Source of the DNA: Pseudomonadota bacterium
Lineage (GTDB): Bacteria; Pseudomonadota; Alphaproteobacteria; Micavibrionales; UBA2020
Reading direction: 5' to 3'
DNA length: 64,000 nt
NCBI GenBank assembly: GCA_021845905.1
Contig: JAJZVA010000006.1
Coordinates: 74,264-138,263, forward strand
The notes beneath the pieces were generated by a model. That model was not told where the DNA came from and ran no database searches. It worked only from the letters and a program-made list of their open reading frames with translations. Below, piece after piece: positions 4,688 to 17,768 of the stretch. Positions within the stretch are counted from its first letter, which is position 1. Each line of letters begins with the position of its first letter. A program made the position numbers and the translations under genes.

Positions 4688-5020
4688 ATGGCATGGACAC
4701 AATCAGGCGAATTCGTGGAATCCGACGTTGTGGAATGGACGGAAGCCATATGGCCTCCCAACCGTTCCCGCCGCCGGAAGAAATCCCGCCCGTGGGGAAA
4801 ACAAAAGGTCACGGCGCAAATTACAGCCATAGACGGCGATTTTGTGAAACTCACCGTCTTGCGCTCCGCTATCGTCGAAAACACTATCGGCTCGGCATTA
4901 AAACTCCACAAGGTCGGCACAACCATTACCAAGAAACGCCAAACCCTCCTGCGCGGCGAACCGGAAAGGCTCTTGTGGTCGGAAGAGGATGTACGAAAGG
5001 TACTTCTCCATCCCCAATAA
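4688..5020 (+). CDS. hypothetical protein, paralog of 41041..41520
   Basis: GAGGAG RBS; shares VVEWTE/VIRWTE, ...TITKKRQTLLRGEPERLLWSEEDVR vs TTITRGGAERLLWSDESAR with the large-element protein. Confidence 0.6.
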   Translation: MAWTQSGEFVESDVVEWTEAIWPPNRSRRRKKSRPWGKQKVTAQITAIDGDFVKLTVLRSAIVENTIGSALKLHKVGTTITKKRQTLLRGEPERLLWSEEDVRKVLLHPQ

Positions 5021-8430: not shown

Positions 8431-8740
8431 ATTGCTATGTTTCCGCTCTCCCAAGGAGCTTGCCCAACGGGTGAAAAAGCACCGGATGCGGCGTCCGCGA
8501 TGTGTAAGAGTAAGCTACTGTAATAGCTACATAATTCTAATAATCGGAGAGCGCCGTGTTAGCCCTGTGCTGATTTTTGCGCTAGCAATCCAAAAACTGC
8601 GGCTAGGTACCTATCGAATGGGGTTACTGACGCCGGTCCGCCTGGCCCATGGGGAGCATCATTCCGCTAGTCGCCACTTGCCCCACCCCCGCCGATCTTC
8701 TGCGCGGCACCGTTGACACGCTAAGGATATCTATTTTGCA

Positions 8741-8787
8741 TTTTGATGCACAAAACTAGGCAATATCCCTTGTTTTGATGCATAAAC
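8741..8787. promoter_or_regulatory. two operator-like palindromes sharing TTTTGATGCA
   Basis: TTTTGATGCACAAAA (8741-8755) and GTTTTGATGCATAAAC (8772-8787). Confidence 0.3.
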
Positions 8788-8794
8788 TGTTGCG

Positions 8795-8878
8795 GACGGC
8801 CAAGCCAAGCAGAACCTGCGCGTCAGCGTCACGCGAGGCAAGCGTCTTACAACCATTTTGAGGCCGTCGTCACGGTAG
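8795..8878 (+). pseudogene. orphan 3' fragment of a UvrD-like helicase gene (inverted duplicate of the gajB-like 3' end)
   Basis: 8800-8861 is a perfect reverse complement of 14137-14198; translates DGQAKQNLRVSVTRGKRLTTIL vs DDQAKQNLRVSVTRGKRLTTIL in ORF 14093..15910. Confidence 0.8.
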
Positions 8879-8893
8879 TTGAACACGCCTCCG

Positions 8894-10135
8894 TCACGCA
8901 ATCAGGGACGCGGCTGCCTCGGCTTGTTCGGTCAGGTAGTGACGGAGTTCGGCGAGCAATGCGCGTTCCGTGGGACTTACACCTGCGAGTAGATCGTCAG
9001 CCTCTTCGATCGCCTTAGGAAGGGTCAGCCAGGGCACGGTCCCGTCCCCAACCATGAGACGGCGGGCAATGGCGATCTCGTAATCACGGCGGGCGGCATG
9101 GGGCATGACATACGCCGCCTCGACGAATACGAGACGCTGGCCGAGCGCCCGCAGGCGCCCATCGCCGAGCCGGCCGATCAGCGGCGGGCGGTGGTGCCAT
9201 TCCAGATCGTGAAACCGGTCAAGCAGCGCCTGATCGTCATTGCCGGTGAAGCCGTCATAAATCTGCTCCTCGACATGGGGCGACGGCTCTTTTTCTTCGC
9301 GCGTCCGGCCAAAGGCGGCGATAAGGCGCGCGGCCAGATTATCATCGGACAGCGCGGCGAAATCGTCCGGGTCCTGCGAGAGGTCGAAGACCAGCATTTC
9401 AGAGCCGTTGTCCGGGTTCATGCCGATGCCGGTGACGAACCACGAGTATCCCTTGCCGTAGAAAAAATCTGTGAGCACGAAGACGTCCTCGTCGAGCGCG
9501 AAATCCGCGACCGCCGCCTTCTGGGCAAAGCGCACGAAATTCGACCAGTGCTCCGGCACGCGCTCGGCGATCAGGCGACACATATGGATGGTCGCCTCCA
9601 CATCGCCCATCGCATCGTGCGCGGCGCTGTGATCGAAGCCGTTGGCAGGCGCGAGCCGGTCGAGCTTGAAGACGGGCCTGCCGCGATCATCGAGCGGGAT
9701 GCTCAGGGTGTTTGGCGCGAACCGTGCGACTGCCTGAATCATCCGCAGGCTGTCGGTGCGGCAATTTCCGTTCGTATTGGTCAGGTAGGGTGCGTGCAGG
9801 GTCTTATACAGCGCCTGGCGCAACAGGTGCTCGTCAAAGCCGAGCGAGTTATGCCCGATGAATATCGCGGGCGACCATTCGGCCATCTTCGCCCTGATCG
9901 CGCGCACCATCCGGTAGTGGCTCGGCAGCGCGGGATCGGTAAGCCGGCCGATGCCGATTCCCGTGACGCGCACCGCGCCAGGCGACGGCACGACGTAAGG
10001 TAAAAGGCGGGAGCGGATTTCAAAGCGGTCCAGCTCGTTCAGGTCGTGATCCGTCCTGATTGCGCCGAACTGGAGTATCTGGTCGAAGGCGGTGTTGGTG
10101 CCGGTCGTCTCGGTATCATAAAACACGAAACTCAT
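8894..10135 (-). CDS. exodeoxyribonuclease I (SbcB)-like DEDDh exonuclease
   Basis: FYDTETTG, GHNSLGFDEHLL, HDAMGDVEAT DEDDh motifs; colinear with E. coli ExoI as recalled, somewhat shorter. Confidence 0.8.
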   Translation of the reverse strand: MSFVFYDTETTGTNTAFDQILQFGAIRTDHDLNELDRFEIRSRLLPYVVPSPGAVRVTGIGIGRLTDPALPSHYRMVRAIRAKMAEWSPAIFIGHNSLGFDEHLLRQALYKTLHAPYLTNTNGNCRTDSLRMIQAVARFAPNTLSIPLDDRGRPVFKLDRLAPANGFDHSAAHDAMGDVEATIHMCRLIAERVPEHWSNFVRFAQKAAVADFALDEDVFVLTDFFYGKGYSWFVTGIGMNPDNGSEMLVFDLSQDPDDFAALSDDNLAARLIAAFGRTREEKEPSPHVEEQIYDGFTGNDDQALLDRFHDLEWHHRPPLIGRLGDGRLRALGQRLVFVEAAYVMPHAARRDYEIAIARRLMVGDGTVPWLTLPKAIEEADDLLAGVSPTERALLAELRHYLTEQAEAAASLIA

Positions 10136-10158
10136 CGCTGGCCCTCCGCCGGCTGGAA

Positions 10159-10686
10159 TTAGGCAAACAGATTTCCGAGCCTGAAGCGCATCGCCGCCGT
10201 GCTGACCTTGTATTCCTTGGCGAGCGCGCTGACGGCGCCCTCGTCGTCAATGTCGAATGACTGCCCCTGCAATGAACGCGCAAGAAATTCTTCGGGCATC
10301 AGAAGTTCGGCGGCGAAGAAATTGGCCTCGATCTCCATTTCATCGATTCCGGCCGAAGACACCGAGTCGCGCATCAGCATCGGGAAGCCCTTATCGACGT
10401 GGATTTGCTTTGTGATCTCGGCGCGGTGAAGCACGAGATGCCCGACTTCGTGGGCGAGCGTAAATCTTTGTCGGTTGGGATGATGAAGGGCGTTGACGCC
10501 GATTATCGGCGTGCCGTCCTTGACATAGACCATGCCCGAGAGTTCGTCGTCGAGCGGGGAAAACCGCAACTGCGCCTCAAGCCCCTTGGCGATACGCTCG
10601 ACCGGAACCGGGGCCGCCATGATGCCCTGCTCGTCCCGTAATTCCTTTACGCGCTTCTGGATCGCGCTGCGCCGTTTCGTATTCAT
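10159..10686 (-). CDS. ImmA/IrrE-family zinc metallopeptidase (CapP-like)
   Basis: HEVGHLVLH motif; 4-nt overlap with upstream XRE gene. Confidence 0.8.
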   Translation of the reverse strand: MNTKRRSAIQKRVKELRDEQGIMAAPVPVERIAKGLEAQLRFSPLDDELSGMVYVKDGTPIIGVNALHHPNRQRFTLAHEVGHLVLHRAEITKQIHVDKGFPMLMRDSVSSAGIDEMEIEANFFAAELLMPEEFLARSLQGQSFDIDDEGAVSALAKEYKVSTAAMRFRLGNLFA

Positions 10687-11060
10687 GCGTTCTCCCTCCC
10701 GTTGTTGGCGCCCTGCTGCATGGCATCGCCCATCAGGCTCAGGACCTCGCGGCGCTGTTTTTCGGTCAGCCCGTCTTCGGCAAGCGGCAGCGGTGACGAG
10801 GCGCCTGCCTTCGGTGCGCGCGCCTGCGGCGCGAGCAGGAGCTGCGCCGGCGAATCGAGTTGCAGAGCCGACGCCAGCGCAAACAGGTGGTGGACAAGCA
10901 CCTGCTGCCGCCCCGCCTCAATATTGGCGAGCGAGGCGCGGGATATGCCGATCTGCTTTGCGAGCTGGTCCTGGGTCTGGCGCAGACTTTTGCGCAAGTC
11001 CCTGATTCGCGCTCCTAAACTTTGATAGATGTGGCCGGCTTCCATAGGTTTTTCTACCAT
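10683..11060 (-). CDS. XRE-family HTH regulator (CapH-like)
   Basis: LRQTQDQLAKQIGISRASLANIEAGRQ HTH; divergent from the Ubl operon. Confidence 0.8.
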   Translation of the reverse strand: MVEKPMEAGHIYQSLGARIRDLRKSLRQTQDQLAKQIGISRASLANIEAGRQQVLVHHLFALASALQLDSPAQLLLAPQARAPKAGASSPLPLAEDGLTEKQRREVLSLMGDAMQQGANNGRENA

Positions 11061-11092
11061 GCAAACGGAAGCGGCGTCAAGATCGCAAACAT

Positions 11093-11159
11093 AGACGTTT
11101 GCATTATAAACTTATTAAACGATTGCATTTTTGACATTTCCGGCGCGCTGTGGCATAAA
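11093..11159 (+). promoter_or_regulatory. promoter of the Ubl operon with adjacent direct-repeat operators
   Basis: TTGACA 11131-11136, 17-nt spacer, CATAAA 11154-11159; ACG(T/A)TTGCATT at 11095-11105 and 11119-11129. Confidence 0.5.
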
Positions 11160-11219
11160 GGAAGGGTCTGCGGGGCCGTCGGCGCCGCGCTTTCTGAAGT
11201 ACGGTGTAAGGAGATTCCG

Positions 11220-11519
11220 ATGGCGCACGAGCATCAACACGAGCATCAACACGAGCATGGACATGGTGGGCATGGCGGGGACGAAGTCACGCTTGAGGTT
11301 GGCACGCCCAAGGGGCTGTTCACTGGCACCTTCCCGAAAACAGCCAAGATTGAGGACGTGATCGCGGCGGCTGTCGAAGCCAAGGGCATCGACAGCGGCG
11401 AATCGCTAGAGCTTGTCTATAACGGCGATGTGCTGCAGCCGGTGCAGCGCACGCTCGTCAGTTTCGGCCTCGCCGGTACAGTGAAGCTCGAACTGGTTGC
11501 GACCGGCTCCGGGGTGTGA
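11220..11519 (+). CDS. bilA: ubiquitin-like beta-grasp protein with His-rich N-terminal tail
   Basis: AAGGAG RBS; MAHEHQHEHQHEHGHGGHGG then ~80-aa Ubl-sized domain ending LELVATGSGV; first gene of Ubl-E2-JAB-E1 operon. Confidence 0.7.
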   Translation: MAHEHQHEHQHEHGHGGHGGDEVTLEVGTPKGLFTGTFPKTAKIEDVIAAAVEAKGIDSGESLELVYNGDVLQPVQRTLVSFGLAGTVKLELVATGSGV

Positions 11520-11522
11520 GCG

Positions 11523-11966
11523 ATGGCCACCGCAGGCGAGCTGGTTTTCGAAGAGCAATTCGGTCACCTGCGGGAGAACGCGCAATCCCGCGGGTGGCCG
11601 CTGGAGCGGGCCTTCATCCTCGGCATGAAAGCCCGCGATGATTCGCAATACTGGCTGCTCGCCGATTGCAGCGACTACCCGGCCCTGCCGCCGGCATGGC
11701 ACTGGTACAACCCAGCGACGAGGCTGCTCGACCAGCCGGCCGATACGCCGAAGGGAGGGACGTTCTTTCACCCCTCCGGCCGAATTTGCGCGCCTTGGAA
11801 CCGTCTTGCCTATACCAAGGTCGATCCCAAGGGGCCTCATGGCGAGTGGGATCTCGCGAACTGGATCACGAATCCCAAGACCGGCAACTGCACCACGCTG
11901 TCGGCGATGGCGCTGCGAATTCATGTCGAGATGAAAAGCGCTCACTACCAGGGCCGGATGGGGTGA
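11523..11966 (+). CDS. bilB: E2-like (UBC-fold) conjugating enzyme
   Basis: FFHPSGRICAPWN resembles the HPN...C active-site loop of E2 enzymes; operon context. Confidence 0.7.
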   Translation: MATAGELVFEEQFGHLRENAQSRGWPLERAFILGMKARDDSQYWLLADCSDYPALPPAWHWYNPATRLLDQPADTPKGGTFFHPSGRICAPWNRLAYTKVDPKGPHGEWDLANWITNPKTGNCTTLSAMALRIHVEMKSAHYQGRMG

Positions 11967-11970
11967 GACG

Positions 11971-12492
11971 ATGCTGAATGCCCTCAAACGCCTGTTTGCA
12001 AAGAAGCCGCGCTACAAGCCGGGGCCGCCGCCCCCGCCGCGGCTCGTGATATCGCAAGGCTGCATCGATGCGCTTGCCGCGTGCCTTGCCCCGGAGATTC
12101 GCGACGGACAGGAAGGGATCGCCTACCTGCTCGGGCAAAGCGACGGTACGACCACGGTGGCGCTCGCCTCGATCCGCCCCGAGGCGCAGGTCACGCGCAG
12201 CAGCTTTGTCGTGAGCGCGTCGGCGATGGCGAAGGTCGTGCGCGCCGCCGTCGATCGCGGCCTGCAGGTGGTCGGACAGATTCACACCCATCCCGGCGAT
12301 GCCTATCACAGCGGCGGCGATGATGACGGCGCGCGGATTGCCTTCACCGGTTATGTATCGATCGTACTGCCCGATTACGGGCGTCACCTCCCCGCGCTGA
12401 CGCGCTCCGCCACCTATGTCTTTCAGGCGGGCAAGGGATTCGTGCCGCTCGGCGCCTCGAACATCGTTATCGTTCCGGGGAGGGTCGCGTGA
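11971..12492 (+). CDS. bilC: JAB/MPN+ metallopeptidase
   Basis: JAMM motif QIHTHPGDAYHSGGD with upstream Glu (EGIAYLLG). Confidence 0.8.
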   Translation: MLNALKRLFAKKPRYKPGPPPPPRLVISQGCIDALAACLAPEIRDGQEGIAYLLGQSDGTTTVALASIRPEAQVTRSSFVVSASAMAKVVRAAVDRGLQVVGQIHTHPGDAYHSGGDDDGARIAFTGYVSIVLPDYGRHLPALTRSATYVFQAGKGFVPLGASNIVIVPGRVA

Positions 12493-13820
12493 AGGATGAG
12501 GATTATTATGACGTGCGCGATGACCGGTTGTTTCGCTATCCCGACGCGCGGCGGCTTGACCAGTCGCGCTGGATTGCGATCCGCGCAGCTCCCGATTACC
12601 TGCGCAGCTATGCCGGCCAGGTCGCCCTGCTGACAGCGGCCAACCTGCTCGGCCGCATGGCGCGGCGGGTTGCGCTCGACATCCTGCCGACGGACATGGT
12701 CCAGCCCCTGCCCTGGGCGGGCGAAGACATCGTCGGCTTTGCTCTCGCGCAGATGCAGGCCGCCGATCCGCGCGGCGAATATCTGATCCGCCCCGCGCAT
12801 GATTCCGATCACATCGTGTTTCTTGGCGCGTCCGGCGCCCCGGTCGTGACGCATGGCGCCGGCTGGCTCGCCTATACCGGCCCTGCCCCGTCACCGCTTC
12901 CCGCCGACGACGCGGCGAACCCCATCGGCGCGGCGCTCGCGGTCATTGCCATGGCGGCGCAGCTTGCTGCACACGGTTTCGACGGGCCGCCGGCTGCGGT
13001 CATGCTCAACAGCTTTGACTGGACTCACGAGTTCGGCGCGCCATTGCCGGCGCTGCCCCTTGGCGCCGATCTCGGCGCGCTATGGGCGGTCGGCGCCGGT
13101 TCCGTCGGCACGGCGATCCTTTATTTCCTGACGCTGGCGACGCGCAATTTTTCCGCGCTGCTGTTCGATCGCGACAAGGTGAAACGCGAGAACATCACGC
13201 GCTCGCCGGTATTCGCCGATGAAGATATCAAAAGCGATAAGGCGCAAGTGCTGGAAGCCTATCTGAGACGCTGCGGGATAACGGACATGGCGCACGAGCC
13301 GGTGATGCTGCATGAATCGCGCAAATGGACCGACCGCGCGAGCGGAACGCCGGACCTCGTGATCGCGGCAGCCAACGAGCACAATGTCCGCCACCTGATA
13401 GAGTCCCTGTTGCCGCCGGTGCAGATTTACGGCACCACAGGCCGCAACTGGCAAGCTTCGGTCATCCGGCATGTGCCGATGGTCGATCCGTGCTCATGCT
13501 GCCTGTTCCCGGAAACCTCCTATACGCCGACCGGCTGCGCAACCGATCCCGAGGCAGCGCCTGCCGACGGTCAGCAGGTCGATGCCGCGCTGCCGCACCT
13601 TTCATTCGCCGCGGGCCTGATGGCCGCCGCGGAAATCCTCAAGCTGAGCCTGCCGGGCTACACAATGACGCCGAACCGCTCCCTGCTCTATACGAAGCCG
13701 GAGCTGCGGCTGGCGCGGGCCGGCGTGAAGCTGCGGCAGGGTTGCGTGTGCGGCGCGCGTAGCCGCGCCGTCCATGAGAAGATGATCGCGGGCAGCCGGT
13801 ACGCAGCGCTGTCGGGTTAG
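12489..13820 (+). CDS. bilD: E1-like ThiF/MoeB-family adenylating enzyme
   Basis: Rossmann GAGSVGTAILYFL...FDRDKV; Cys clusters DPCSCCLFPE and GCVCG; GTGA start/stop overlap with JAB gene. Confidence 0.75.
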   Translation: MKDEDYYDVRDDRLFRYPDARRLDQSRWIAIRAAPDYLRSYAGQVALLTAANLLGRMARRVALDILPTDMVQPLPWAGEDIVGFALAQMQAADPRGEYLIRPAHDSDHIVFLGASGAPVVTHGAGWLAYTGPAPSPLPADDAANPIGAALAVIAMAAQLAAHGFDGPPAAVMLNSFDWTHEFGAPLPALPLGADLGALWAVGAGSVGTAILYFLTLATRNFSALLFDRDKVKRENITRSPVFADEDIKSDKAQVLEAYLRRCGITDMAHEPVMLHESRKWTDRASGTPDLVIAAANEHNVRHLIESLLPPVQIYGTTGRNWQASVIRHVPMVDPCSCCLFPETSYTPTGCATDPEAAPADGQQVDAALPHLSFAAGLMAAAEILKLSLPGYTMTPNRSLLYTKPELRLARAGVKLRQGCVCGARSRAVHEKMIAGSRYAALSG

Positions 13821-13857
13821 CGGTCCGATAGGCTGGCATTGGCGCTAGGCCCCGATT

Positions 13858-13894
13858 CCTTGCAATTCCGGCGGCTAGCGCCGGAATTGCAAGG
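13858..13894. other. perfect 16-bp hairpin (5-nt loop)
   Basis: ccttgcaattccggcg-gctag-cgccggaattgcaagg; no flanking T-run on either strand. Confidence 0.7.
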
Positions 13895-13999
13895 ATGATA
13901 CCGCGCCAGAAAACTGAAGTAGTTCTTGCCCGCCTTGGCCAGTTTCCGACCGTGGCGCTGCTCGGGCCGCGGCAGGAGGGCAAAACCACGCTCGCCGAA
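13895..13999 (+). pseudogene. truncated 5' end of an AAA ATPase gene (DUF4143-associated type)
   Basis: MIPRQKTEVVLARLGQFPTVALLGPRQEGKTTLAE matches the usual N-terminus and Walker A of this family (memory); similarity ends after ~35 codons. Confidence 0.6.
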
Positions 14000-14092
14000 G
14001 GGCGAAGGAGTCGAGGTTATCGGTCTCAAGGAAATGGCGTCGCTTGTCGCGGGCTCCTAGAGCGGCCCATGGCGTCAGCGATGAAGTCGGTT

Positions 14093-15910
14093 TCAATTGT
14101 TTCCAGGAAGAAGGACGCAAGGGTCATTCTTCGGCGTCAAAATGGTTGTAAGACGCTTGCCTCGCGTGACGCTGACGCGCAGGTTCTGCTTGGCTTGGTC
14201 GTCTGCATGATCCCGTGAATTGAAGCGCACAATGCGGTCCGCGTTGTAGGGTGGCTGGCCCTTCCGTTTGATCGGCCAGCCCTCGAAAATAATAACTTCG
14301 TCGAATTGCTTACCTTTCGCTTTGTGCATGTTCATCACGATAACGCCGGACTCCGGCTTGACGTTTGTCGAAAAGTGCTCCCGGACGAAAGCCTGTCGCG
14401 TGATCGCCAGCGCATTGGAATAGCCGCCGTTGTCACGCCAATCCCGGGAAAGCTCCTGACGAAGTTGGGTCCCGCGCTCCAGGATACGGACGTTGCGAAC
14501 CTCATTCGCAATCTCATTCAATCTTTTGCAAGCTCCGTCCTGGAGGATGTGCCGCATGGCCAGCCAGTCGTTATCGGGGTCGCCCACAAGCACGAGCGCA
14601 CGTGTCTGGTCGTACACGGCGAGCATGCTGACGATGATGCTGTTCTTCCGCACGGCTTTGCCTGACGCATGACAAGTCAAAAGCTCTTCGTAGGCTTTTC
14701 GGATGCCCGCCGCCTCTTTCAGTGCTCCTTGCGTGGGTTCATCGCCGCCTTTGCCATGGAAGTAGTTGCACATGAGTTCGATGAACTGTTCAAAGTGATG
14801 GCGATCCACGGCAGGCTGCAACAGATGTGCGATAACTTCCGCCCCAAGGATTGCCGCCTCCATTTCGATGACCGCGGAATGCGGCACCTCAATCATCCCT
14901 GCCGGAGGTTGACGCAAGGCATCTGACACCAGGCGCGTCATCTTCTTTGTCGGGACGAGAATGGCCAGGGACCAGTCGGTGACGCCTTGGCTGACCAAGC
15001 GCCCGCGCGCGGCATAGGTCGTCGTAACTAGCTTTGTCATCGCTGGATCGGGAAAGGGGTCAAAGACATCGAACGCGATGCCCTTATACGTGTTCTGACG
15101 GAATTTCCCCGTAAGCAGGTCGTTGCCGAACATGCCGATCTCTGTCCCGGCGCTTCGGTGATTGTCTGTGCTCAGGTCTATCTCTGTTGGGGTGAACGTC
15201 TCTCGGAAATGGTGGAGACGCGCCGGGTCGGCACCAATCCAGTCATAAATGCGCTGTTCCGGGTCGGCGAGAGCAATCAGCCGGCAGAACGCGCCCAGCG
15301 CCTGAACGACCCGCCATTGCTGCGCATTCGTGTCCTGAAACTCGTCGAGGATGATGATCGGGTACATGGTCCCAATCAATCTGCGAATGCGATCGCTGCC
15401 GTGAAGGATTTCGCCGACATGGGGGGCATAGAGATCGAAGCACACAAGCCCCTCCGCGTTTGCGAGGCGGATGCGCTCTGTCTGCTCAGCGGCCTTCTTG
15501 GCCACCTTCTGCTCGTCGGAGAGGTTTCTGGCCGGGAAACCGGATCGCACCGCGGAGAGGGCGATCGCCTCGCCGGACGGCGTGAGGATACTGAGCCGCC
15601 GCGGCAGCCCGATGAGATAACCATGAGCCTTGAGGATACGCCAAAAGAAGGAATGGTAGGTCTCGACATCGATGAGCTGCTTCTGGGCACGCGGGATTTT
15701 CTGCTCATATTCGATAGCTTCTACCACACGCGAGACGGTGGCGCGTGCGAAGCTCAGAAACAGTATCTTCTGGCCGGGCCGAAGTTGATGCTCTGCCAAG
15801 TGGGCCGCCTTAAGAATGGAAACGGTTGTCTTTCCGGAACCCGGCCCTCCCGTGACAAGAAGGTGGCCATCGGCGTCCATCGCCTCAAGCTGCTTTTCAG
15901 TCAATTTCAT
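14093..15910 (-). CDS. gajB: UvrD/PcrA-like superfamily 1 helicase (GajB-like)
   Basis: LVTGGPGSGKTT Walker A, IILDEFQDT motif II; 14-nt overlap with upstream OLD-family gene. Confidence 0.8.
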   Translation of the reverse strand: MKLTEKQLEAMDADGHLLVTGGPGSGKTTVSILKAAHLAEHQLRPGQKILFLSFARATVSRVVEAIEYEQKIPRAQKQLIDVETYHSFFWRILKAHGYLIGLPRRLSILTPSGEAIALSAVRSGFPARNLSDEQKVAKKAAEQTERIRLANAEGLVCFDLYAPHVGEILHGSDRIRRLIGTMYPIIILDEFQDTNAQQWRVVQALGAFCRLIALADPEQRIYDWIGADPARLHHFRETFTPTEIDLSTDNHRSAGTEIGMFGNDLLTGKFRQNTYKGIAFDVFDPFPDPAMTKLVTTTYAARGRLVSQGVTDWSLAILVPTKKMTRLVSDALRQPPAGMIEVPHSAVIEMEAAILGAEVIAHLLQPAVDRHHFEQFIELMCNYFHGKGGDEPTQGALKEAAGIRKAYEELLTCHASGKAVRKNSIIVSMLAVYDQTRALVLVGDPDNDWLAMRHILQDGACKRLNEIANEVRNVRILERGTQLRQELSRDWRDNGGYSNALAITRQAFVREHFSTNVKPESGVIVMNMHKAKGKQFDEVIIFEGWPIKRKGQPPYNADRIVRFNSRDHADDQAKQNLRVSVTRGKRLTTILTPKNDPCVLLPGNN

Positions 15911-17768
15911 TTACACCGGCTCCCGGATCAGCGCCCGCAGCGACGGGTTCGACCGCCGCATTGATGGCGGCTGGGGCGGGTGTGCAGGCATCTTTCAACT
16001 GGACACACGCATTCCGAAGCCATTCGGGAATCTCGGACTCACTACATTGAGCCAGAAAGTCAGCGATAGCCCAATTTCCTTTGGCCCCTGCAAAATACTC
16101 CGAAAGCGCAACCGTGGCCTGCGCTCCAGGATCAGGGTACTTGGCCTTGAGGTGCGGAGGCCACGTGATGAGGTTCACGAACCGTTTTAGAGCCGCCTCG
16201 GTGGTGCCTTTCAGCACCATGGCCTCGAATCCTTTTTCCTCGTGCATCAACGACAACTCGACGTGGGCTTCAATCAGGGCCTTGTTCCCGTCCTCCTGCT
16301 TGTCGCAAATCGCAAAGGTGCGTTTTCCGAGGGCGCTATAAAACTGCGCCATGCCGGGGATGTTACTTTCGCTGCCGGCATCGACCGTGCAGATACCGAG
16401 TGCTTCAAGGGAGGAATAAACCTCCGGCTTTATCTCTGAAAGGCGACGGCATACCACCGGAAAGGCCGACGCCTCCGTAGCTCCTTCAGCAATGAGGATA
16501 CGGCGGGCGAGCAAACCTTCGCAGAAGCGGGTGCGGAATTCCTGCCGGTAGCGCTTGAGCTTCACGTTGTCGGGCAGCGCTATGATCTTGCGGGCGAGCA
16601 TCCCTTCTGTGTCACGCCCCAGAACGACGGTCTCCTCAAGGGCGAACTCCTCAAGCACGTATGGCGAATGCGACGTGAAGAGGGTTTGCGATGCCAGCTT
16701 CCGAACCTCGTGAACGATGCGCTTTTGGGCATAGGGCGGGATGGCCGTCTCCGGCTCTTCCATGGCAAAGATGACATTCTGCTTGTCTTCAGCGATTTGT
16801 GAGAGCATCGCCAGGACCAGCATGTTGATGGTGCCCGTCCCTTGTCGATAGAAGGGTGCGGCGTGATCGCCGTCTCCTGTGGCGATGAACGCCGTGATCA
16901 CCTTCCGCAAGTGCTCACGCGTTAAATTGGACACCTTAAGATGGGGCTTTACGCCCCATTCCTTTGGCACGTACTTCTTGAGCGCGACGCTGATGCTATC
17001 AAGTATCGGGGAAATACCAAGTTTCGGATCACTCGCAACCGAGATTCCAGACAGCGTTCCAAGTGTGTCCTCCCACATCTGCGGCCTGACTTCTTTGAGC
17101 CGCAGAATGATATCAAGCAGGCTGCCACGCTCTAAACTCAATGCGCGGGTGCCTGTCCGGAGGGAGCGGAGGTAAAGGAAGCCACATACCTGCTTGTGCC
17201 TCTTTGAGAACAGCTCTGGCGTGTCACCTTCCGTGAGACTGCGGGTAAAGAAGGTCCTGCCCTCGAAATCGTCCTCTTCCTCTTCGTACCAACCGTGGAA
17301 TGTGACGCGCAGCGCTTCGGTGATGGCGGCGCCGTCGACTCCCGCCGGGTTTGGTTCGTTGTAGAACTGGTCTGTCGCCGCGTCCCAAAACTCCGTGTAG
17401 TCGCCAAACTTTCCCTTCTGCTCGTCGGTAAGGTCCGCAACTGTCACCTCAATCTCGATTCTGGGAGCATCGGCCGCTACCTTGGTATCGTTGGCGGCGG
17501 GTTCGCCGTTATCATCAGCAGCGGGTTCAGCCGCTCCATCAGCCGGGGCCGCAACGGGCTTGACGGTATAATCACCTCTGAAAAAATCGTGCTCGTCGAT
17601 GGGTGGTTGGCGGTTGAGACGATCAGGCCCGAGCACCAGATCGAGTGCTTCGAGAATGGTCGTTTTGCCGGTGTTGTTATCGCCGATCAGTACCCCGTGC
17701 TTTGGTAACAACAGTGTTGTTGCCTTCACACCCCTGAAATTCTTGATGATGAGGCGACACGCTCTCAC
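15897..17768 (-). CDS. gajA: OLD-family ABC ATPase + TOPRIM nuclease (GajA-like)
   Basis: IIKNFRGVK...LIGDNNTGKTTILEAL N-terminus; C-terminal ILIAEGATEASAF TOPRIM-like; paired with UvrD helicase. Confidence 0.8.
   Translation of the reverse strand: MRACRLIIKNFRGVKATTLLLPKHGVLIGDNNTGKTTILEALDLVLGPDRLNRQPPIDEHDFFRGDYTVKPVAAPADGAAEPAADDNGEPAANDTKVAADAPRIEIEVTVADLTDEQKGKFGDYTEFWDAATDQFYNEPNPAGVDGAAITEALRVTFHGWYEEEEDDFEGRTFFTRSLTEGDTPELFSKRHKQVCGFLYLRSLRTGTRALSLERGSLLDIILRLKEVRPQMWEDTLGTLSGISVASDPKLGISPILDSISVALKKYVPKEWGVKPHLKVSNLTREHLRKVITAFIATGDGDHAAPFYRQGTGTINMLVLAMLSQIAEDKQNVIFAMEEPETAIPPYAQKRIVHEVRKLASQTLFTSHSPYVLEEFALEETVVLGRDTEGMLARKIIALPDNVKLKRYRQEFRTRFCEGLLARRILIAEGATEASAFPVVCRRLSEIKPEVYSSLEALGICTVDAGSESNIPGMAQFYSALGKRTFAICDKQEDGNKALIEAHVELSLMHEEKGFEAMVLKGTTEAALKRFVNLITWPPHLKAKYPDPGAQATVALSEYFAGAKGNWAIADFLAQCSESEIPEWLRNACVQLKDACTPAPAAINAAVEPVAAGADPGAGVNEID

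What the first reader, a model, noticed from the sequence alone, without database searches (positions are those of the whole stretch)
11220..13820. Complete Bil-type ubiquitin-like conjugation operon with an atypical Ubl
The gene order is Ubl, E2-like (HPSGRIC), JAB (HTHPxxxxHSxxD) and E1-like (GAGSVG Rossmann, Cys clusters). This matches the bacterial Ubl-conjugation defence operons (Bil) as I recall them.

The Ubl has two odd features:
- It starts with HEHQHEHQHEHGHGGHGG, encoded by a direct 12-nt repeat (cacgagcatcaa) that could expand or contract.
- It ends ...ATGSGV rather than in Gly-Gly, so a residue may need trimming, possibly by the JAB protein, before adenylation.
Basis: partly seen in the sequence, partly recalled or inferred. 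Interest (0 to 1): 0.6.

Follow-up and report, generated by a model that had tools for sequence, protein, structure and literature searches.

The report
Bil-like bacterial ubiquitin-conjugation operon, third lineage
This is a real four-gene bacterial ubiquitin-like tagging operon, related to the known Bil anti-phage systems but belonging to neither described Bil type, and its two "odd" Ubl features are a normal trait of its family and a local repeat expansion.

Summary
Positions 11220-13820 carry four co-oriented, tightly packed genes:
- a Ubl of 99 aa
- an E2-like protein of 147 aa
- a JAB peptidase of 173 aa
- an E1 of 443 aa

All catalytic motifs are present, and the cassette recurs in about 33 genomes from several phyla. 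Predicted structures give a beta-grasp Ubl and a UBC-like E2. The nearest solved structure to that E2 is the Bil E2. The best solved-structure sequence matches of the JAB and E1 are BilC and BilD.

The operon fits neither described Bil type. It lacks the Type II Pfam markers (Metal_CEHH, Prok-E2_C) and the E1 helical CYS insertion. It scores on Type I models only as weakly as a Type II control does. I therefore read it as a third, apparently uncatalogued Bil-like lineage.

The C-terminal "GV" is not atypical. 119 of 120 family Ubls end in Val, and all four Val codons are used. JAB trimming after the Gly has a Type II precedent.

The His-rich tail is a lineage-specific in-frame repeat expansion of 0, 18, 33 or 51 nt among relatives.

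A Gabija system lies next door.

The parts
11220..11519 (+). Ubl gene (BilA-like), 99 aa. It has a disordered N-terminal tail (residues 1-21) and a single beta-grasp domain (residues 22-94). The C-terminus is ...LVATGSGV.
   Evidence: ORF. AlphaFold2 model with mean pLDDT 83 and >=87 across the domain. Foldseek TM about 0.8 to ubiquitin, SUMO and NEDD8. 131 homologues found.
11226..11279 (+). His/Gly/Glu-rich tract HEHQHEHQHEHGHGGHGG (residues 3-20). It contains the perfect 12-nt tandem repeat CACGAGCATCAA x2.8 at 11226-11258.
   Evidence: TRF. The tract is 0, 18, 33 or 51 nt long in relatives whose E1 is 69, 78-83, 86 or 100% identical. Length variants occur within one cluster of >90% identity. 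The tail is predicted to be disordered.
11511..11516 (+). Gly98-Val99. Gly98 is the presumed conjugation residue. Val99 is a one-residue cap conserved across the family.
   Evidence: 119 of 120 database homologues end in V, mostly GSGV or GDGV. The Val uses GTC, GTG, GTT and GTA and all three stop codons occur, so the constraint is on the protein.
11523..11966 (+). E2-like (BilB-like) gene, 147 aa. The catalytic Cys89 is at 11787-11789, in FHxSGRIC. His106 is invariant, at 11838-11840.
   Evidence: Alignment A2. AlphaFold2 pLDDT 93.9. Top Foldseek PDB hits are 8tz0_C and 8tyz_C, the E. aridi BilB (prob 0.97, TM 0.55), followed by UBE2T.
11971..12492 (+). JAB/JAMM metallopeptidase (BilC-like), 173 aa. 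Catalytic residues are Glu48 (12112-12114) and the motif H105xH107...S114xxD117 (12283-12321).
   Evidence: Pfam Prok-JAB, 5.8e-08. Best PDB hit is 8tyx_B BilC, 3.8e-11. 26% identity to Collimonas BilC, E 6e-12. The motif is invariant in 36 sequences.
12489..13820 (+). E1 (BilD-like), 443 aa.
- The N-terminal half resembles an inactive adenylation domain (about residues 1-190).
- The C-terminal half is the active ThiF-type adenylation domain.
- Conserved residues: GAGSVG at 13092-13109, N235/R238, K251.
- Zinc cysteines: C335, C338, C419 and C421.
- The presumed catalytic Cys350 (13536-13538) sits on a short crossover loop.
   Evidence: Pfam ThiF, 3.9e-12. Alignment A1 invariants. The best profile hit in the PDB is 8tyz_A BilD, 3.8e-09, over the N-terminal half. 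hhalign prob 96.8. Loop length is 30 residues against 92 in E. aridi BilD.
10683..11060 (-). capH-like HTH repressor gene, divergent from the Ubl gene. The likely start is the conserved ATG at 11045 (120 aa). The longest ORF starts at 11060 (125 aa).
   Evidence: PADLOC capH, 6.3e-13. Pfam HTH_3/HTH_31. The conserved start is shown.
10159..10686 (-). capP-like ImmA/IrrE (M78) metallopeptidase gene, 175 aa, with an HEVGH motif. It overlaps the capH stop.
   Evidence: PADLOC capP, 4.2e-34, matching profile positions 3-150 of 242. Pfam Peptidase_M78. A similar gene lies divergently upstream in at least 15 family loci.
11085..11102 (.). Conserved palindrome GCAAAC-N6-GTTTGC in the divergent intergenic region. 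It is a candidate CapH operator.
   Evidence: CAAAC-N6-GTTTG/A is kept in five related loci. A wider inverted repeat lies at 11059-11067 / 11096-11104. Binding was not tested.
11131..11159 (+). Candidate sigma-70-type promoter of the Ubl operon, TTGACA-17 nt-CATAAA. An AGGAGA ribosome-binding site follows at 11209-11214.
   Evidence: Both hexamers are conserved in the five-locus alignment. The strict consensus scan did not call this site, so it is inferred.
13858..13894 (+). Perfect 15-bp stem-loop (CCTTGCAATTCCGGC...GCCGGAATTGCAAGG) 38 nt after the E1 stop. It may mark the end of the operon.
   Evidence: Read directly from the sequence. It has no T-run, so the terminator scan did not call it.
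8894..10135 (-). SbcB/ExoI-like 3'-5' exonuclease gene directly downstream of capH-capP. It may be an accessory gene of this subclade only.
   Evidence: PADLOC RTasSbcB, 357 bits. It is adjacent in the same way in L046, L048, L032 and L033 but not in more distant loci.

Best explanation
The region is a Bil-like ubiquitin-like conjugation operon under a CapH/CapP-type switch, sitting in a defence island.

**Proposed mechanism, by analogy with the characterised Bil systems**
1. CapH represses the divergent promoter. It is removed when the CapP peptidase is activated, which in known CapH/CapP pairs happens on DNA damage.
2. The Ubl is made as a pro-form ending in Gly98-Val99. The JAB peptidase removes Val99 and exposes Gly98.
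3. The E1 adenylates Gly98 and takes it as a thioester on Cys350, which sits on a short crossover loop.
4. The Ubl passes to Cys89 of the compact UBC-like E2. The E2 attaches it to lysines of targets. In Type I Bil the target is a phage tail protein.
5. The JAB can probably also reverse conjugation.

**What is shown and what is inferred**
- Shown here: the folds, the catalytic residues, conservation of the cassette, homology to BilB, BilC and BilD, and the association with the regulators.
- Inferred: every biochemical step, the target and the anti-phage role.

**Placement.** By sequence the cassette belongs to a small family (226 representatives at 50% identity among 1.84 billion proteins). 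That family is as far from Type I as from Type II Bil.

**The His-rich tail.** It is a disordered, slippage-prone insertion at codon 4/5 and is not a family feature.
For: **Conservation**
- Gene order and tight spacing.
- The cassette is conserved in about 33 loci across phyla.

**Ubl**
- Predicted beta-grasp with TM about 0.8 to ubiquitin, SUMO and NEDD8.

**E2**
- Confident model (pLDDT 93.9). The closest solved structure is E. aridi BilB, followed by canonical E2s.
- Cys89 and His106 are invariant, matching the Cys/His pair conserved in both Bil types.

**JAB**
- JAMM residues E48, H105, H107, S114 and D117 are invariant.
- Best PDB hit is BilC. Identity to Collimonas BilC is 26%.

**E1**
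- The glycine loop, N235/R238, K251, the four zinc cysteines and Cys350 are invariant.
- The N-terminal half is homologous to the inactive adenylation domain of BilD.

**C-terminal Val**
- Conserved at the protein level.
- E. aridi BilC trims one residue after the Gly.

**Regulation and context**
- capH and capP are identified by PADLOC and recur upstream in at least 15 family loci.
- 15% of Type II Bil operons carry CapH/CapP.
- Gabija is adjacent here. SIR2, DUF87 and Dnd-associated genes, an integrase or a relaxase flank the relatives. One copy lies on a conjugative Mesorhizobium plasmid.
Against: - No experiment bears on this family.
- The Ubl and E2 show no significant sequence similarity to E. 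aridi BilA or BilB. The Foldseek E-value for the E2 is only 0.05.
- PADLOC finds no BilA and only a marginal BilB.
- At the position of the canonical Mg-binding Asp of E1 enzymes (ThiF D127 in the alignment) this family has an invariant Asn296-Glu297. Adenylation chemistry is therefore assumed, not assured.
- CapP here is short and matches only the peptidase part of the capP profile.
- The strictly conserved Val could mean something other than a disposable cap.
- The strict scan called no promoter.
Confidence: 0.75

Rival explanations
1. It is an ordinary member of Type I (Collimonas-like) or Type II (CEHH/6C, Ensifer-like) Bil, only somewhat diverged.
For: - Same gene order and the same four protein kinds.
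- The best PDB hits are BilC, BilD and BilB.
- A single beta-grasp Ubl with variable N-terminal tails, including coiled coils, and residues after the Gly all resemble Type II.
- E1 length (443 aa) is close to the Type I model length of 453.
Against: - Type II markers are absent. E. aridi BilB scores 336 bits on Metal_CEHH and BilD scores 256 bits on Prok-E2_C. The window proteins hit neither, even at E <= 1.
- The E1 lacks about 62 residues of the CYS-domain insertion.
- On the Type I (PADLOC) models, partial Collimonas BilC scores 185 bits and partial BilA scores 125 bits. The window scores 52 bits on BilC, nothing on BilA, 16 on BilB and 50 on BilD. The BilD score equals that of the Type II control, 51 bits.
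- Type I Ubls overwhelmingly have two beta-grasp domains.
- None of six isolates carrying this family appear in the Type II Bil or Bub catalogues.
Confidence: 0.12
2. It is a Ubl-conjugation system for a DNA-damage or general stress response of the host or of a mobile element, not for anti-phage defence.
For: - CapH/CapP-type switches respond to DNA damage.
- In this subclade an ExoI-like exonuclease sits in the regulator operon.
- Related loci lie next to relaxase and ParA genes or an integrase and on a conjugative plasmid.
- Bub operons are discussed in the literature as possible stress responders.
Against: - Gabija is immediately adjacent, and other defence-type genes flank the relatives.
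- CapH/CapP is itself typical of immune operons.
Confidence: 0.15
3. It is a sulfur-carrier or cofactor-biosynthesis pair (ThiS/MoaD with ThiF/MoeB) or a peptide-modification system of the MccB type.
For: By single-sequence search the E1 adenylation domain is closest to ThiF and MccB. It also gives weak NCBIfam hits to ThiF, MoeB and UbaA.
Against: - All those NCBIfam scores are far below the curated cut-offs.
- An E2 with a catalytic Cys and a JAB are always present in the cassette.
- The Ubl is closer in structure to ubiquitin, SUMO and NEDD8.
- No biosynthetic genes are nearby.
- The N-terminal half of the E1 is BilD-like.
Confidence: 0.02
4. The His-rich tail is a selected metal-binding or oligomerisation module rather than a neutral slippage product.
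For: - Eight His in 21 residues, the most in the family.
- Shorter HG/HE tails persist across the close subclade.
- A second His-rich tail (NHHAHHHDEGSDH) occurs in a Ubl only 58% identical.
- Metal-driven (Ca2+) assembly of other bacterial Ubls is documented.
Against: - 92 of 128 family Ubls have essentially no tail, only 3-4 residues.
- The tract differs in length and sequence even between Ubls more than 90% identical.
- It is encoded partly by a perfect 12-nt repeat.
- It is predicted to be disordered.
Confidence: 0.3

Closest known systems
Type II Bil (BilABCD; CEHH/6C operons), e.g. Ensifer aridi TW10 (Chambers et al., bioRxiv 10.1101/2023.09.26.559546; PDB 8TYX, 8TYZ, 8TZ0)
   Same: - Gene order Ubl-E2-JAB-E1.
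- A single beta-grasp Ubl with a short Gly-rich tail, or in relatives a coiled-coil tail.
- A residue after the conjugating Gly, which in E. aridi is removed by the JAB.
- An E1 with an inactive plus an active adenylation domain and a four-cysteine zinc site.
- A Cys...His pair in the E2.
- Frequent CapH/CapP regulators.
- The best solved-structure matches for the JAB, E1 and E2.
   Different: - No Metal_CEHH and no Prok-E2_C domain signatures.
- E2 of 147 aa against 204 aa.
- The E1 lacks the helical CYS domain. The catalytic Cys sits on a 30-residue loop against a 92-residue insertion.
- The post-Gly residue is a single, almost invariant Val, rather than up to nine unconserved residues.
- The Ubl and E2 are not detectably similar in sequence.
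Type I Bil (bacterial ISG15-like), Collimonas sp. OK412 (Hör et al., bioRxiv 10.1101/2023.09.04.556158)
   Same: - The same four genes in the same order.
- The JAB is 26% identical and has the same JAMM motif. Collimonas D115 corresponds to D117 here.
- E2 and E1 sizes are similar to the Type I model lengths of 159 and 453.
- Cys-dependent E1 and E2.
   Different: - Type I Ubls have two beta-grasp domains and normally end in Gly. This one has a single domain and ends in Gly-Val.
- PADLOC Type I models match only weakly or not at all, at the level of a Type II control.
Type II CBASS Cap2/Cap3 and Bub (6E/DUF6527) operons
   Same: An E1/E2/JAB-type conjugation logic in bacterial conflict systems. 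The E1 gives weak PADLOC hits to Cap2-type E1-E2 models.
   Different: E1 and E2 are separate proteins here. There is no CD-NTase and no DUF6527/BubE serine protease, and none of the Ubl-E2 or JAB-E1 fusions that define Bub.
CapH/CapP regulators of bacterial immune operons
   Same: A divergent HTH repressor plus an M78 metallopeptidase upstream of the operon. Both are identified by PADLOC capH and capP models. A conserved palindrome lies in the intergenic region.
   Different: CapP here is only 175 aa and matches only positions 3-150 of the 242-position profile. The C-terminal part of typical CapP therefore appears to be missing.

Membership tests
Bil in the broad sense (Ubl + E2 + JAB + E1 operon) | Four separate genes in the order Ubl, E2, JAB/DUB, E1 | tested here: met
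   ORFs at 11220-13820. The same order is found in about 33 related loci.
Bil in the broad sense | Ubl with a beta-grasp fold and a conserved C-terminal Gly for conjugation | tested here: met
   AlphaFold2 and Foldseek. G98 is invariant and is followed by V99.
Bil in the broad sense | E2 with a catalytic Cys and the nearby conserved His (C138/H151 in E. aridi) | tested here: met
   C89 and H106 are invariant. The fold is closest to BilB. The equivalence of the His is inferred from the local motif (PAHSGDPW against GPHGEW).
Bil in the broad sense | JAMM peptidase with E...HxH...S..D | tested here: met
   E48, H105, H107, S114 and D117 are invariant. Best PDB hit is BilC.
Bil in the broad sense | E1 with an inactive plus an active adenylation domain, a catalytic Cys and a zinc site | tested here: met
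   One caveat: the canonical Mg-binding Asp position holds Asn296-Glu297 (alignment).
Bil in the broad sense | Ubl conjugation to targets and protection against phage | not testable with these tools
   Needs biochemistry and phage assays.
Type II Bil (CEHH/6C) | E2 is a Metal_CEHH (PF14455) protein | tested here: not met
   E. aridi BilB scores 336 bits. The window E2 gives no hit at E <= 1. hhalign prob 1.2.
Type II Bil (CEHH/6C) | The N-terminal domain of the E1 matches Prok-E2_C (PF14459) | tested here: not met
   E. aridi BilD scores 256 bits. The window E1 hits ThiF only. Remote homology of this region is still visible by profile methods.
Type II Bil (CEHH/6C) | Mobile alpha-helical CYS domain inserted in the E1 and carrying the catalytic Cys | tested here: not met
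   30 residues between CxxC and the following helix, against 92 in E. aridi. The E1 was not modelled in 3D.
Type I Bil (ISG15-like) | Proteins match the Type I family models (PADLOC BilA-D) | tested here: not met
   The window scores nothing on BilA, 16 bits on BilB, 52 on BilC and 50 on BilD. Type I controls score 125 and 185 bits on partial sequences. The Type II control scores 51 bits on BilD.
Type I Bil (ISG15-like) | Ubl with two tandem beta-grasp domains, usually ending in Gly | tested here: not met
   One beta-grasp domain and an ending in GV.
Bub (6E/DUF6527) | DUF6527/BubE protease and fused Ubl-E2, JAB-E1 or E2-E1 proteins | tested here: not met
   No such gene or fusion in the window or in related loci.
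CapH/CapP regulator pair | Divergent HTH plus M78 peptidase matching the capH and capP models | tested here: met
   capH 6.3e-13 and capP 4.2e-34. CapP matches the peptidase part only.

The most novel reading that the evidence does not exclude
This is the founding example of a third, so far uncatalogued lineage of Bil-type bacterial ubiquitination operons. The lineage would be defined by four features:
- a Ubl with a single, strictly conserved C-terminal Val cap after the conjugating Gly
- a compact 147-aa UBC-like E2 with an H-x-S/N...C motif
- an E1 that carries its catalytic Cys on a short crossover loop, has no helical CYS domain, and has Asn-Glu at the canonical Mg-binding Asp position
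- a frequent CapH/CapP switch

In one subclade the Ubl has also gained a hypervariable His-rich tail. That tail could make the tag metal-responsive.
Probability: 0.45. Interest if true: 0.55.

Novelty: new variant of a known kind. Interest (0 to 1): 0.42.

Why it matters
Bacterial ubiquitination-like systems are studied as the likely ancestors of eukaryotic ubiquitin signalling and as anti-phage defences. Only two Bil types are described in the literature I could search.

- **A simpler E1.** A third lineage with a ThiF-like crossover-loop cysteine would add an intermediate form between sulfur-carrier E1s and the domain-inserted E1s of Type II Bil and eukaryotes.
- **A testable cap.** The invariant one-residue Val cap lends itself to experiments on how pro-Ubl processing gates the pathway.
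- **Annotation.** RefSeq labels the Ubl and E2 of a homologous plasmid cassette as hypothetical proteins, and PADLOC 2.0 models barely detect the system. It is probably missed in defence-system censuses.
- **The His-rich tail.** It is a minor curiosity unless metal binding is shown.

Tried and rejected
- **Plasmid DNA search.** Megablast of the region against plasmids found nothing. A protein-level search found one Mesorhizobium plasmid copy.
- **Single-sequence PDB searches.** The E2 gave nothing. The Ubl gave only low-complexity His matches and a designed ubiquitin.
- **E2 profile against the PDB.** Only a chance hit.
- **hhalign against E. aridi.** Neither the E2 family against BilB nor the Ubl family against BilA was significant.
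- **NCBIfam.** Only sub-threshold ThiF, MoeB, UbaA and desampylase hits.
- **Full Collimonas BilB and BilD.** Not obtainable, because the supplementary insert sequences are cut at 400 nt. Only partial BilA and BilC served as Type I controls.
- **Distant relatives as a bridge to Type I.** The distant loci (L036-L042) and remote E2 relatives are not Type I either.
- **Consensus scans.** The strict promoter and terminator scan found nothing useful.
- **Rfam.** No match in 8500-14400.
- **Literature.** The search for a 'Type III Bil' found none.
- **Is the terminal Val a nucleotide-level constraint?** I considered that it might serve as the ribosome-binding site for the E2 gene. I rejected this because all four Val codons and all three stop codons occur.


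Full report
**1. What is in the sequence**

Positions 11220-13820 hold four co-oriented genes with gaps of 3 and 4 nt and one 4-nt overlap:
- a 99-aa protein at 11220-11519
- a 147-aa protein at 11523-11966
- a 173-aa protein at 11971-12492
- a 443-aa protein at 12489-13820, with a GTG start

Tandem Repeats Finder reports CACGAGCATCAA, period 12, 2.8 copies, 100% match, at 11226-11258. The exact proteins occur on a contig of NCBI assembly GCA_027431735.1 and in two sequencing-run assemblies.

**2. Identity of the four proteins**

*JAB and E1, by sequence*
- Pfam places the third protein in Prok-JAB (5.8e-08) and the fourth in ThiF (3.9e-12). It gives nothing above threshold for the first two.
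- Against solved structures, the JAB's best hit is the E. aridi deubiquitinase BilC (8tyx_B, 3.8e-11).
- A profile of the E1 family hits E. aridi BilD first (8tyz_A, 3.8e-09). The match runs over the N-terminal half plus the start of the Rossmann fold, and hhalign agrees (prob 96.8).
- The E1 therefore has the BilD layout of an inactive plus an active adenylation domain.

*Ubl and E2, by predicted structure*
- The first protein is predicted to have a disordered tail (residues 1-21) followed by a beta-grasp domain (residues 22-94). The domain superposes on ubiquitin, SUMO and NEDD8 at TM about 0.8.
- The second protein gives a confident model (pLDDT 93.9). Its top PDB matches are the three chains of E. 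aridi BilB (prob 0.96-0.97, TM 0.52-0.57), followed by UBE2T and other canonical E2s.

*Catalytic residues.* All of the following are invariant in the family alignments.
- E2: Cys89 and His106, with a nearly invariant His83 in FHxSGRIC.
- JAB: Glu48, His105, His107, Ser114 and Asp117.
- E1: G202xG204SVG207, D227, N235, R238, K251, C335xxC338, C350 and C419xC421.

**3. The cassette is a conserved unit**

- A scan of one genome per species found 42 loci that encode a relative of the E1.
- In about 33 of them, Ubl, E2 and JAB homologues sit directly upstream in the same order.
- The hosts include Alpha- and Gammaproteobacteria, Acidobacteriota, Nitrospirae, Cyanobacteria and Chloroflexi.
- The family is small. 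An E2 profile finds only 226 representatives at 50% identity among 1.84 billion proteins, and 11 at E <= 1e-30.

**4. Which Bil is it?**

The literature held here recognises two types. Type I is Collimonas-like, with a two-domain ISG15-like Ubl. Type II is the former CEHH/6C group. No 'Type III' turned up in the search.

*Type II test*
- E. aridi BilB scores 336 bits on Pfam Metal_CEHH, and BilD scores 256 bits on Prok-E2_C.
- The window proteins hit neither model.
- The E1 has 30 residues between its CxxC and the following helix. E. aridi BilD has 92 residues there, forming the helical CYS domain.

*Type I test*
- The PADLOC Bil models are Type I models. Partial Collimonas BilC scores 185 bits and partial BilA scores 125 bits.
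- The window proteins score 52 bits on BilC, 50 on BilD and 16 on BilB, and give no hit on BilA.
- The 50 bits on BilD is what the Type II control obtains (51 bits).
- Neither the more distant members of the family nor remote E2 relatives score better.
- The JAB is about equally distant from Collimonas BilC (26% identity, E 6e-12) and from E. aridi BilC.

None of six isolates that carry this family appear in the published Type II Bil or Bub catalogues. That is a weak negative.

I conclude that the operon is homologous to Bil and probably works like Bil, but it fails the membership tests for both described types. A full phylogeny is still needed.

**5. The 'atypical' C-terminus**

- Among 120 database homologues, 119 end in Val. 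The endings are GSGV in 94 and GDGV in 18.
- In 35 genomic loci the terminal codon is GTC in 17, GTG in 8, GTT in 5, GTA in 4 and GCT in 1. All three stop codons occur.
- The constraint is therefore on the amino acid. It is not on the ribosome-binding site of the next gene.
- Residues after the conjugating Gly are already known. Type II Ubls carry up to nine unconserved residues, and E. aridi BilC cleaves after Gly97 to remove Ala98. Without that cleavage the residue blocks ATP binding in the E1.
- Twelve Type I Ubls have overhangs of 2-9 residues.

What is distinctive here is that the cap is exactly one residue and almost always Val. Why it is Val is unexplained. Specificity of the JAB for the residue after the cut is the simplest guess.

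**6. The His-rich tail**

- Of 128 family Ubls examined, 92 have only 3-4 residues before the first strand.
- Tails of 8-21 residues rich in His, Gly, Glu or Asp are confined to the close subclade.
- Even inside one cluster of >90% identity the tail reads MNTDEV, MAHEHGHGEDEV, MAHEHGHGHGEDEV, MAHEHGDDGHGHGGDEV or, longest, the window's MAHEHQHEHQHEHGHGGHGGDEV.
- At the DNA level the tract between ATGGCGCACGAA and GAAGTCACGCT is 0, 18, 33 or 51 nt in loci whose E1 is 69, 78-83, 86 or 100% identical.

This is an in-frame expansion driven by slippage, in a segment predicted to be disordered. It changes length only and cannot switch the gene off. A metal-related role is possible but untested. Variable N-terminal extensions, whether disordered or coiled-coil, are a known feature of Bil and Bub Ubls. 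Coiled-coil tails occur in the Acidobacteriota members of this family.

**7. Surroundings and regulation**

*Regulator pair*
- An HTH gene (10683-11045/11060) and an M78 metallopeptidase gene (10159-10686) lie divergently upstream.
- PADLOC assigns them to capH (6.3e-13) and capP (4.2e-34). The capP match covers the peptidase part only.
- A capP-like gene sits in the same position in at least 15 family loci.
- 15% of Type II Bil operons have CapH/CapP.

*Intergenic region.* It is conserved in five related loci and contains:
- a palindrome GCAAAC-N6-GTTTGC at 11085-11102
- TTGACA-17 nt-CATAAA at 11131-11159
- AGGAGA at 11209-11214

These are candidate operator, promoter and ribosome-binding sites. 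The strict scan did not call the promoter.

*Neighbours*
- In the close subclade an ExoI/SbcB-like exonuclease gene follows capP.
- A Gabija pair lies downstream, with GajB at 778 bits and GajA at 867 bits.
- Relatives are flanked by SIR2, DUF87 and Dnd-associated genes, by a relaxase and ParA, or by an integrase.
- One copy lies on a conjugative Mesorhizobium huakuii plasmid. There RefSeq labels the Ubl and E2 as hypothetical proteins.
- No Rfam family matches the region.

**8. Mechanism**

*Shown here:* the folds, catalytic residues, conservation, homology and regulator association described above.

*Inferred by analogy with Bil:*
1. CapP removes CapH and the operon is derepressed.
2. The JAB removes Val99.
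3. The E1 adenylates Gly98 and forms a thioester on Cys350.
4. The Ubl passes to E2 Cys89.
5. The E2 conjugates it to target lysines, plausibly on a phage structural protein.
6. The JAB reverses conjugation.

*One caveat.* At the position of the canonical Mg-binding Asp (ThiF D127 in the alignment) this family has an invariant Asn296-Glu297. Glu297 may substitute for the Asp, but this is unverified.

**9. Verdict**

- The finding is a new variant of a known kind of system.
- It is of moderate interest, mainly as a probable third Bil lineage with a simpler E1 and a conserved one-residue Val cap.

Noticed in passing
window 14093-17768 (- strand): A complete Gabija system lies next to the operon. 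gajB is at 14093-15910 (PADLOC GajB, 778 bits) and gajA at 15897-17768 (GajA, 867 bits, with an OLD-type TOPRIM domain). The region is therefore a defence island.
   Followed up: partly
window 8791-8866 and 14132-14207: A 76-nt inverted repeat (96% complementary) brackets the 5.3-kb module of exonuclease, capP, capH, Ubl, E2, JAB and E1. The right arm is the 3' end of gajB. The left arm is an orphan inverted copy of that coding sequence with no gene attached. This suggests a past rearrangement or insertion.
   Followed up: partly
window 8894-10135 (- strand): The SbcB/ExoI-like exonuclease (PADLOC RTasSbcB, 357 bits) follows capH-capP. Compared with its 468-aa orthologues in related loci it has an in-frame internal deletion of 55 residues. 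The gene accompanies the cassette only in the close subclade. Its role is unknown.
   Followed up: partly
window 13895 to about 14000 (+ strand): The ORF that starts MIPRQKTEVVLARLGQFPTVALLGPRQEGKTTLAEG looks like the first 36 or so codons of an AAA_14/DUF4143 ATPase gene. I judged this from the Walker-A-like motif and did not align it. Such a gene is intact downstream of the E1 in related locus L046 (7460-8623). Here it appears to be a truncated remnant abutting gajB.
   Followed up: no
window 13374-13379 (E1 residues N296-E297): Across the whole family the E1 reads 'AANE' where ThiF, MoeB and E. aridi BilD have the Mg-binding Asp (ThiF D127). Asn296 and Glu297 are invariant. I cannot tell whether this changes the adenylation chemistry.
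   Followed up: partly
loci L009, L010, L016, L018 (Acidobacteriota), Ubl genes just upstream of position 5000 or 1300-2150: In these family members the Ubl carries an N-terminal extension of 40-60 residues that looks helical or coiled-coil. Each also has a capH/capP pair. This parallels the coiled-coil Ubls described for Type II Bil.
   Followed up: no
E1 and E2 homologues: Many E1 homologues carry a precomputed hit to Pfam PF27312, which is not in the local Pfam copy, and some E2 homologues hit PF24702 (DUF7665). The window E2 matches DUF7665 only below threshold (15 bits against a cut-off of 27). Pfam may already hold families built on this lineage without any functional name.
   Followed up: no
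L049 (Mesorhizobium huakuii plasmid p_2, NZ_CP050297.1, 255265-257901): A homologous cassette (E1 46% identical) lies on a conjugative plasmid with ImmA/IrrE and HTH genes upstream. Downstream is a metallophosphoesterase and ATP-binding protein pair. RefSeq annotates the Ubl and E2 as hypothetical proteins.
   Followed up: partly
window 8725-8790: An A/T-rich stretch just beyond the exonuclease gene holds TTTTGCATTTTGATGCACAAAA and TTGTTTTGATGCATAAAC. Both contain TTGCAT/ATGCA half-sites. Similar TTGCAT sequences occur in the capH-Ubl intergenic region (CGTTTGCAT at 11096-11104, GATTGCATTT at 11122). I did not test whether these are related binding sites.
   Followed up: no
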